A DNA stretch of 64,000 bases from the human T2T-CHM13v2.0 reference genome, Homo sapiens: assembly GCF_009914755.1 (NCBI RefSeq), contig NC_060937.1. One strand, given 5' to 3'. Positions 49,932 to 50,734 of this stretch are shown here, piece after piece. How positions within the stretch are numbered: position 1 is the first letter of the stretch; the number at the start of each line of letters is the position of its first letter. Made by a program: the position numbers and the translations under genes. A model generated the notes under the pieces. That model saw only the letters and a list, made by a program, of their open reading frames with translations, had not been told where the DNA came from and ran no database searches.

Positions 49932-50734
49932 CTGGATTCTTCCTGGCAGTGCTCAGCTCCCCGTGCAGCGCCTGCTGCCATCCATCCAGTGCATACCTTC
50001 GCCACTCCAGGGATGCTTGCAGTGCGGCCTCCCCTTGGAGGCTGTCCTCTGTGCCCCTCCTCACTCTACTCTTTAATTAGAATCCAATATTTTGGCCAGG
50101 CTCGATGGCTCAGGTCCTTCTTATAGACTCACTGAATATTGAAATCGGTAGGACATACCTTTTTGCTTATTTATTGTTCTCATTTAGTGCTTATCTCTGG
50201 TCTTTCCTGTCCTTTTGGAGTCACCAAAATTTGATAACAGAAACTTTGACTTCCATTTCTGATCCCATGTGATCTTCCCAGTAAGTCTAACCCTAGGATG
50301 TGATTTGTATATCTGTTACCCTCTCACCCACATACTCCCTACTAAGATAACATGAAGCATAACTGAGTTGTCCATTCTATGACTTAGCAAAATATATTGT
50401 TTTATTCCTCTAAATAAATTTCTCAAGGAGTTAATTATAATGCAAAGCCAGTTACTCATTCTGGCAATGTGCAAATTCAGAAATATACAGAAAATGTACA
50501 ACAACCCAGATTAATCTTAATATACACATTATGTCATTAAAATCAAGGTAGATATGAATTTCTATAATCTTTATATGTAAAGCTTAATATCTTTAAGAAA
50601 TATTTAGGTAATGTTGCAGTTTTAATTTGTGTCTATGTAGTTTGGTCCCCTTTGTTCCATTTTAATTTATTTCCACTCTTTGTATTACTCCCTTGTTTTC
50701 ATTTGTTTTGCTACTATTTCCTCTTTATTATTAT

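What the first reader, a model, noticed from the sequence alone, without database searches (positions are those of the whole stretch)
49932..50108. STAR retrocopy appears to preserve an upstream exon spliced into the STAR promoter
Seen: the 14-bp TSD (47973-47986 / 50109-50122) puts the 5' end of the retrocopy at 50108, so about 177 bp of GC-richer sequence ending '...GGAAGAATCCAG' on the minus strand belongs to the inserted unit. From recall of STAR: similarity to the parent stops at CAG|TGAGTGATGGCG, where the parent reads roughly 'ccccttcctttgcacag|tgagtgatgg'. That is a polypyrimidine tract plus CAG, a typical splice acceptor, lying upstream of the usual TTTAA-driven start site. Inference: the template was a germline or early-embryo STAR transcript from a distal promoter, whose first exon spliced into what is normally the proximal promoter. 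Such an RNA would carry upstream ATGs (ORF 49906-49577 overlaps the STAR ATG out of frame), so it may be poorly translated or regulatory.
Basis: partly seen in the sequence, partly recalled or inferred. Interest (0 to 1): 0.82.

Follow-up and report, generated by a model that had tools for sequence, protein, structure and literature searches.

The report
STAR pseudogene preserves a spliced upstream exon
The old processed copy of the steroid-hormone gene STAR on chromosome 13 begins with a piece that lies 4 kb upstream of the real gene and was spliced into its promoter, so it records a STAR transcript form not found in the literature searched here.

Summary
Window 49932-50108 (minus strand) matches one other place in the assembly: chr8:38432095-38432271, 85.9% identical, on the STAR strand, 4,054 bp upstream of where homology resumes in the STAR proximal promoter. 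In the parent the segment is followed by CAG|GTGAGA, and the promoter break is preceded by a pyrimidine-rich tract ending in CAG. This implies a canonical GT-AG intron. All six normal STAR introns are also missing, the copy ends at the short-3'UTR poly(A) site, and a 13-of-14 target-site duplication flanks it.

STARP1 is therefore an L1-type retrocopy of a 5'-extended STAR mRNA that carried about 84 bp of core promoter as leader. Both splice sites are still intact in the parent. That leader would be at least 399 nt with 8 upstream ATGs, against 134 nt and none in the canonical leader.

Still open: whether the segment is a true first exon (4-nt microhomology suggests 5' truncation), whether the isoform is made today, and whether any catalogue annotates it. 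The general kind is known. Nothing about this STAR isoform turned up in print.

The parts
50109..50122 (-). 5' copy of the target-site duplication. Its last 4 nt (50109-50112, TGAG) also match the parent, giving microhomology at the 5' junction.
   Evidence: D3, 13 of 14 identical; alignment.
49932..50108 (-). Segment derived from an upstream STAR exon. It matches chr8:38432095-38432271 on the minus strand (152 of 177 identical, no gaps). The first 15 nt (50094-50108) correspond to the 5' end of an antisense Alu that is present in the parent.
49931..49932 (-). Fossil exon-exon junction (...GAATCCAG|TGAGTGATGG...). In the parent the two sides are 4,054 bp apart and bounded by GT...AG.
49848..49931 (-). 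84 bp of the STAR proximal promoter, including the TTTAA box, carried as transcribed leader. It matches chr8:38427957-38428040 (79 of 84 identical). It lies outside the RefSeq STARP1 feature, which stops at 49847.
   Evidence: hub annotation.
48006..49847 (-). STAR exons 1-7 joined without introns. The STAR ATG is at 49725, and the frame is disrupted. The copy ends at the short-3'UTR poly(A) site, where the parental AATAAA now reads AAAAAA.
49296..49521 (-). Later Alu insertion inside exon 3, flanked by an 11-nt direct repeat (49285-49295 / 49522-49532).
   Evidence: (D7).
47987..48005 (-). Tail remnant where the poly(A) should be. It is now a (CA)n run ending in AA.
47973..47986 (-). 3' copy of the target-site duplication.
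   Evidence: D3.

Best explanation
STARP1 is an L1-type processed pseudogene copied from a 5'-extended STAR mRNA.

That RNA began at least 4.3 kb upstream of the usual start site. It contained an exon ending at T2T chr8:38432095. That exon was spliced from the donor CAG|GTGAGA to a cryptic acceptor (...TTTGCACAG|) about 85 bp upstream of the canonical start. So 84 bp of the core promoter became part of the leader. The six normal introns were removed, and the RNA was polyadenylated at the proximal site. It was then reverse-transcribed into chr13 in a heritable cell lineage.

Shown here: the map position, the strand, the splice signals, the intronless body, the poly(A)-site end and the target-site duplication.

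Inferred:
- Germline or early-embryo expression.
- The copy is probably 5'-truncated. If so, the segment need not be a first exon, and the true start could be a distal promoter or read-through from the same-strand Sm-like gene upstream.
- The isoform translates StAR poorly, because its leader carries 8 upstream ATGs.
For: - Uniqueness and position; the 177-nt segment has 2 matches in the whole assembly, itself and chr8:38432095-38432264 on the minus strand. The promoter/exon-1 part matches chr8:38427728-38428040 on the minus strand.
- Splice signals; the parent reads ...GAATCCAG|GTGAGAAC at the segment's end and ...CCTTGACCCCTTCCTTTGCACAG|TGAGTG at the promoter break. 16 of 20 bases at -23..-4 are pyrimidines.
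- Rarity of the donor; this is 1 of only 2 CAG|GTRAG sites in 20 kb of the STAR-sense strand.
- Retrocopy anatomy; 7 of 7 STAR exons are present and 6 of 6 introns absent; the 3' end lies just after the AATAAA site; the target-site duplication is 13 of 14.
- The intron is real parental sequence; the intervening 4 kb is largely single-copy, so it is not a later repeat insertion. PMC9569709 (passages read) places species-conserved STAR promoter motifs within the first few hundred bp upstream of the start.
- No small-RNA chimera; no Rfam family matches in 49800-50250.
- Leader content; with my exon boundaries the parent main ORF is 285 codons. The extended leader is at least 399 nt with 8 uATGs; the canonical leader is 134 nt with none.
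Against: - No RNA data could be consulted, so present-day use of the junction is unshown.
- The junction has a 3-nt ambiguity: CAG is present on both sides. That is also what a microhomology-guided template jump or deletion would leave.
- No outgroup genome was available, so neither the empty site nor conservation of the splice sites was tested.
- The upstream segment differs from its parent about twice as much as the rest of the copy (K2P 0.160, against 0.037-0.107 for the other segments). This fits neutral drift in both lineages and gives no sign that the exon sequence is under selection.
- A 2025 review gives the STAR locus as GRCh38 chr8:38142700-38150992 and lists six Ensembl transcripts (PMC12527451, passages). 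None would reach 4 kb upstream, so the isoform is either rare, extinct or simply unannotated.
- No CpG-island-like promoter lies within 6.7 kb upstream, apart from one stretch of two overlapping windows that coincides with an Alu.
Confidence: 0.88

Rival explanations
1. The join was not made by splicing. An unspliced upstream-initiated STAR pre-mRNA was the template. The 4 kb was then lost either by an intramolecular jump of the L1 reverse transcriptase, or by a later deletion in chr13, at the shared CAG.
For: CAG is present on both sides of the join. Microhomology is typical of template jumps and end-joining. The 5' end of the copy also shows microhomology (4 nt).
Against: Of the 4 possible placements of the break, one gives an exact GT...AG intron, with an extended donor (CAG|GTGAGA) and a pyrimidine tract plus CAG acceptor. 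Such donors occur only twice in 20 kb. The other six introns were all removed precisely, so the RNA had been fully processed.
Confidence: 0.05
2. The segment and the promoter were contiguous in the ancestral STAR gene. The 4,054 bp between them was inserted into chr8 after the retrocopy formed.
For: The interval contains four Alu-matching stretches.
Against: Within a 2,276-bp Alu-free stretch of the interval, only about 110-nt pieces are repeated elsewhere. In the 340 bp next to the acceptor, the genome search found no other copy beyond roughly the first 80 nt. That stretch is the known STAR promoter, with species-conserved motifs within a few hundred bp of the start (PMC9569709, passages). 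An insertion bounded exactly by GT and AG would be a coincidence.
Confidence: 0.01
3. This is a sub-question within the main reading. The retained 5' end (chr8 about 38432271-38432275) is the true cap site of a distal promoter at the edge of the antisense Alu, so the segment is a genuine first exon.
For: The copy is otherwise complete. Nothing in the copy demands more upstream sequence.
Against: - There is 4-nt microhomology (TGAG) between the target site and the parent at the 5' junction. From my recall of the L1 literature, that is the usual mark of 5'-truncated insertions.
- No CpG-rich or other promoter-like feature lies there.
- Acceptor-like sites lie just upstream in the same antisense Alu: first exon base 38432514, and a T-run followed by AG near 38432375.
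- A same-strand gene with LSM-domain exons lies upstream, its nearest exon hit about 14.5 kb away. It is LSM1 by recall, and it could supply read-through transcripts.
Confidence: 0.3

Closest known systems
Processed pseudogenes as 'genomic fossils' of parental transcript variants (Shemesh et al. 2006 PNAS). I saw this paper only in the reference lists of PMC4772013 and PMC5470649; its content is recalled.
   Same: A retrocopy preserves an exon-exon junction and a 5' end of a parental RNA that current annotation does not show.
   Different: This is a single case, worked out here for STAR. The junction uses an acceptor inside the gene's own core promoter.
Retrocopies that inherit a parental promoter because the template RNA started at an upstream promoter (Carelli et al. 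2016, PMC4772013; passages read; about 3% of expressed retrocopies).
   Same: The STARP1 unit contains 84 bp of parental promoter upstream of the canonical start site, delivered by a 5'-extended transcript.
   Different: There is no evidence that STARP1 is transcribed from it. Only about 85 bp came along, without the promoter sequence further upstream. The coding frame is broken.
Long undecoded transcript isoforms (LUTIs), for example human MDM2 (Hollerer et al. 2019, PMC6469420; abstract read).
   Same: A 5'-extended isoform runs across the proximal promoter and carries upstream ATGs and ORFs that should block translation of the main ORF.
   Different: The distal promoter has not been located. 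Neither repression of the proximal promoter nor poor translation has been shown. Here part of the promoter region is removed as an intron rather than read through entirely.
Ordinary L1-mediated processed pseudogene. STARP1 was mapped to chromosome 13 by Sugawara et al. 1995; those papers are not held, and I saw only the citations in PMC12527451 and PMC11840834.
   Same: Intronless, ends at the poly(A) site, has a target-site duplication, and sits on another chromosome.
   Different: It extends 261 bp beyond the annotated 5' end (49848-50108), into promoter-derived and upstream-exon-derived sequence.

Membership tests
L1-mediated processed pseudogene (retrocopy) | All parental introns are absent and the exons are joined collinearly. 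| tested here: met
   7 of 7 STAR exons align in order, and 6 of 6 canonical introns are absent.
L1-mediated processed pseudogene (retrocopy) | The 3' end lies at a parental polyadenylation site. | tested here: met
   homology ends about 20 nt after the parental AATAAA (chr8 38420656).
L1-mediated processed pseudogene (retrocopy) | A poly(A) tail follows the 3' end. | tested here: inconclusive
   the tail position now holds (CA)n plus AA. This is plausibly a decayed or expanded A tail, but it is not a poly(A) run.
L1-mediated processed pseudogene (retrocopy) | Flanking target-site duplication. | tested here: met
   14 nt, 13 of 14 identical, at both ends of parental homology.
L1-mediated processed pseudogene (retrocopy) | L1 endonuclease-type target (TT|AAAA; consensus recalled). 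| tested here: inconclusive
   the site reads TAT|AAGAAG in copy orientation. It is similar to the consensus but degenerate.
Canonical GT-AG intron between the upstream segment and the promoter | In the parent, GT follows directly after the last retained base of the upstream segment. | tested here: met
   CAG|GTGAGA; 1 of 2 CAG|GTRAG sites in 20 kb.
Canonical GT-AG intron between the upstream segment and the promoter | In the parent, AG with a pyrimidine tract sits directly before the first base of the downstream part. | tested here: met
   ...CCTTGACCCCTTCCTTTGCACAG|TGAGTG. 16 of 20 bases are pyrimidines, and there is no earlier AG in the last 15 nt.
Canonical GT-AG intron between the upstream segment and the promoter | Both parts lie on the same strand, in the same order, at one locus. 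| tested here: met
   both are on the chr8 minus strand, 4,054 bp apart.
Canonical GT-AG intron between the upstream segment and the promoter | The junction is seen in RNA. | not testable with these tools
   No transcript data are held.
Retrocopy with inherited parental promoter | Parental sequence upstream of the parental start site lies inside the inserted unit. | tested here: met
   84 bp, 79 of 84 identical.
Retrocopy with inherited parental promoter | The retrocopy is transcribed from that inherited promoter. | not testable with these tools
   No CAGE or RNA data are held.
LUTI-type repressive 5'-extended isoform | Transcript from a distal promoter that overlaps the proximal promoter. | tested here: inconclusive
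   The 5' extension and passage through the promoter region are shown. No distal promoter was located.
LUTI-type repressive 5'-extended isoform | uORFs in the extension block translation of the main ORF. | tested here: inconclusive
   8 uATGs, 3 of which open an overlapping out-of-frame 107-109-codon ORF. Translation itself was not measured.
LUTI-type repressive 5'-extended isoform | Cis repression of the proximal promoter. | not testable with these tools
   This needs experiments.

The most novel reading that the evidence does not exclude
STAR still makes this isoform in germ cells or early embryos, from a distal promoter or by read-through from the upstream same-strand gene. The isoform runs across the SF-1-dependent proximal promoter and splices at -85. 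Its 8 upstream ATGs and overlapping uORF keep it untranslated. On this reading it is a LUTI-like off-switch for a rate-limiting steroidogenic gene, and STARP1 is its fossil, tens of millions of years old.
Probability: 0.12. Interest if true: 0.7.

Novelty: new member of a known kind. Interest (0 to 1): 0.45.

Why it matters

The pseudogene shows that the locus once produced a fully processed mRNA starting more than 4 kb upstream and using a splice acceptor inside that promoter. The splice signals are still intact, so it may produce this mRNA today.

This explains how a gene restricted to steroidogenic cells could leave a heritable retrocopy: through a different, non-canonical transcript. It also gives an exact junction to look for in RNA data, and it points to possible promoter interference and uORF control at STAR.

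In addition, it corrects the extent of STARP1. The real unit is 47987-50108, not the annotated 18879-49847.

Tried and rejected
- Proxy empty site. I searched the two chr13 flanks against the assembly, hoping both lay in one repeat copy. The 5' flank is unique (1 match, itself). In the 3' flank only 47600-47873 is a high-copy repeat, and the 113 nt next to the duplication are unique. No proxy was possible.
- Small-RNA chimera. The Rfam scan of 49800-50250 gave 0 matches at E up to 1.
- Distal promoter by CpG content. The only flagged stretch in chr8 38427000-38438999, two overlapping windows at 38434200-38434650, coincides with an Alu.
- Small ORFs on both strands of 49850-50150.
- Literature on a STAR upstream exon, alternative first exon or promoter, or on the pseudogene's 5' end. 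Searches, and passages, gave nothing relevant. The hits concerned CYP19A1, CREM/ICER, plant genes named StARP1, or the STAR aligner.
- Papers not held. Sugawara et al. 1995 (PNAS) and Shemesh et al. 2006 could not be read. Sugawara et al. 1995 (Biochemistry), which described the pseudogene sequence, was not looked up and was seen only as a citation. Any of these could already mention the 5' part.

Full report
**What is in the window.** The minus strand of 47973-50122 holds a complete retroposed unit.

- A 14-nt direct repeat, 13 of 14 identical, sits at 47973-47986 and 50109-50122.
- Between the two copies, local BLAST against 20 kb of chr8 fetched from the same assembly aligns all seven STAR exons in order, with none of the six introns.
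- Homology at the 3' end stops about 20 nt after the parental AATAAA. This is the short-3'UTR poly(A) site. It is followed by a (CA)n run ending in AA, and then by the repeat.
- An Alu (49296-49521) with its own 11-nt flanking repeat interrupts exon 3.

This is a classical L1-type processed pseudogene, and the hub table names it STARP1.

**The 5' part.** Homology to STAR exon 1 continues 84 bp upstream of the annotated mRNA 5' end, through the TTTAA box, up to ...CAG|TGAGTGATGGCG at 49931 (79 of 84 identical).

The next 177 nt (49932-50108) have two matches in the whole 3.1-Gb assembly. One is the segment itself. The other is chr8:38432095-38432264 on the minus strand, at 87%. A global alignment extends this to 38432271 (152 of 177 identical, no gaps). 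The promoter and exon-1 part matches chr8:38427728-38428040 on the same strand. The two pieces are therefore collinear, on the STAR strand, and 4,054 bp apart.

**The junction is a splice junction.** In the parent the upstream piece ends ...GAATCCAG and is followed by GTGAGAAC. The promoter piece is preceded by ...CCTTGACCCCTTCCTTTGCACAG. At -23..-4, 16 of 20 bases are pyrimidines, and no AG occurs before the one used.

On the STAR-sense strand of the 20 kb examined, only 2 positions match CAG|GTRAG: the STAR exon-3 donor and this site. 16 positions meet my acceptor criteria, including this one. Those criteria were set after I saw the sites, so the joint figure (about 3e-7) is illustrative. 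With bare GT and AG frequencies and four possible placements of the CAG-ambiguous break, chance is about 1.6%.

Both signals are intact in the present human sequence.

**Rivals.**

- *A later 4-kb insertion in the parent.* This is unlikely. Within a 2,276-bp Alu-free stretch of the interval, only pieces of about 110 nt are repeated elsewhere. In the 340 bp next to the acceptor, no other copy was found beyond roughly the first 80 nt. That stretch is the well-studied STAR promoter, whose motifs are described as species-conserved within the first few hundred bp (PMC9569709, passages).
- *A chimera with a small RNA.* This is excluded by the map position and by an empty Rfam scan.
- *A template jump or deletion at the shared CAG.* This cannot be strictly excluded, but it would have to coincide with one of the two strong donor sites in 20 kb.

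**Is it a first exon?** Probably not shown.

- The first 15 nt of the segment (50094-50108), plus the last 4 nt of the target-site repeat, match the 5' end of an Alu that lies antisense in the parent. So the Alu predates the retroposition.
- The 5' junction carries 4 nt of microhomology (TGAG). From my recall of the L1 literature, this is typical of 5'-truncated insertions.
- Acceptor-like sites lie just upstream within that Alu (first exon base 38432514; a T-run followed by AG near 38432375).
- Two LSM-domain exon matches lie on the same strand at chr8:38446787-38446897 (23.5 bits, just over the family cut-off) and 38448945-38449013 (18.8 bits, below it). This is LSM1 by recall.

A read-through or far-upstream start is therefore as plausible as a promoter at the Alu edge. 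No CpG-rich stretch other than an Alu was seen within 6.7 kb upstream.

**Consequences for the RNA.** I joined the parental pieces in a script, using exon boundaries that reproduce a 285-codon main ORF. The extended leader is at least 399 nt and has 8 upstream ATGs. Three are consecutive ATGs in the promoter-derived part, and they open a 107-109-codon ORF that overlaps the STAR ATG out of frame. The canonical 134-nt leader has none. Poor translation is a reasonable inference from the scanning model, but it was not shown.

**Selection and age.** The upstream segment differs from its parent by K2P 0.160 (25 of 177 sites). The promoter part gives 0.062, and the exon segments give 0.037-0.107. This fits neutral change in both lineages for the upstream exon, and change mainly in the pseudogene for the constrained parts. 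So there is no sign of sequence constraint on the exon, though the sample is small. A per-lineage divergence near 0.08, and the presence of an Alu in the template, place the event within primate history, tens of millions of years ago. No outgroup was available to refine this.

**Comparison with what is known.** Two ideas are established. One is that retrocopies fossilise parental transcript variants (Shemesh et al. 2006; seen only in reference lists, content recalled). The other is that a transcript from an upstream start can carry a downstream parental promoter into a retrocopy (Carelli et al. 2016, PMC4772013, passages; about 3% of expressed retrocopies). The inferred isoform resembles a LUTI such as the distal MDM2 transcript (PMC6469420, abstract), but only in anatomy.

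For STAR itself, five searches and passages in two recent STAR reviews gave no mention of an upstream exon. One review lists six Ensembl transcripts and gives the locus as GRCh38 chr8:38142700-38150992, which would not reach 4 kb upstream. This is indirect: I could not consult annotation, RNA data, or the 1995 papers that first described the pseudogene (the PNAS paper was not held).

**Verdict.** The central interpretation, an upstream exon spliced into the proximal promoter, is supported at about 0.9. 'First exon', 'germline', 'regulatory' and 'unannotated' remain open. This is a new, clean example of a known kind, at a medically important gene, with an exact junction that can be checked quickly against RNA data.

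Noticed in passing
window 18879-44063: The RefSeq STARP1 feature spans 18879..49847, but its seven distal 'exons' are not part of the retrocopy. 18879-18987 and 29966-30158 are Alus that match Alus in the long STAR 3'UTR region at about 76%. The other five are 12-28 nt scraps. The real unit is 47987-50108, and the annotation misses its first 261 bp (49848-50108).
   Followed up: yes
window 49285-49532: The Alu inside exon 3 (49296-49521, sense on the minus strand) is flanked by an 11-nt direct repeat. However, it ends in a G-rich stretch at roughly Alu position 220, with no right-arm end and no A tail. A 3'-truncated Alu with a tidy flanking repeat is not what target-primed insertion normally gives.
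   Followed up: partly
window 47987-48017: The place of the poly(A) tail is occupied by a (CA)n run that continues the parental CACACAAACA just before the cleavage site. The tail may have been converted into, or replaced by, a dinucleotide microsatellite.
   Followed up: partly
window 49932-50108 vs L007 (chr8 38432095-38432271): The pseudogene copy of the upstream segment keeps 5 CpGs, while the parent has 1. 6 of the 25 differences are in CpG context. The ancestral exon was apparently richer in CpG than the present parental one. The sample is too small to test.
   Followed up: partly
window 47600-47873: A high-copy interspersed repeat (4,482 first-look candidates, best about 88% identical) lies 113 nt beyond the 3' target-site repeat. 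I did not identify its family.
   Followed up: no
window 49740-49775 vs L006 (chr8 38427850-38427885): The STAR 5'UTR holds a GCA/GCG triplet-repeat run that is 12 nt shorter and degenerate in the pseudogene. This looks like repeat-length change in one of the two lineages.
   Followed up: no
G000 chr8:38446787-38446897 and 38448945-38449013 (minus strand): Two LSM-domain exon matches lie on the STAR strand. The nearer one is about 14.5 kb upstream of the fossil exon. This is LSM1 by recall, and it is a possible source of read-through transcripts into STAR.
   Followed up: partly
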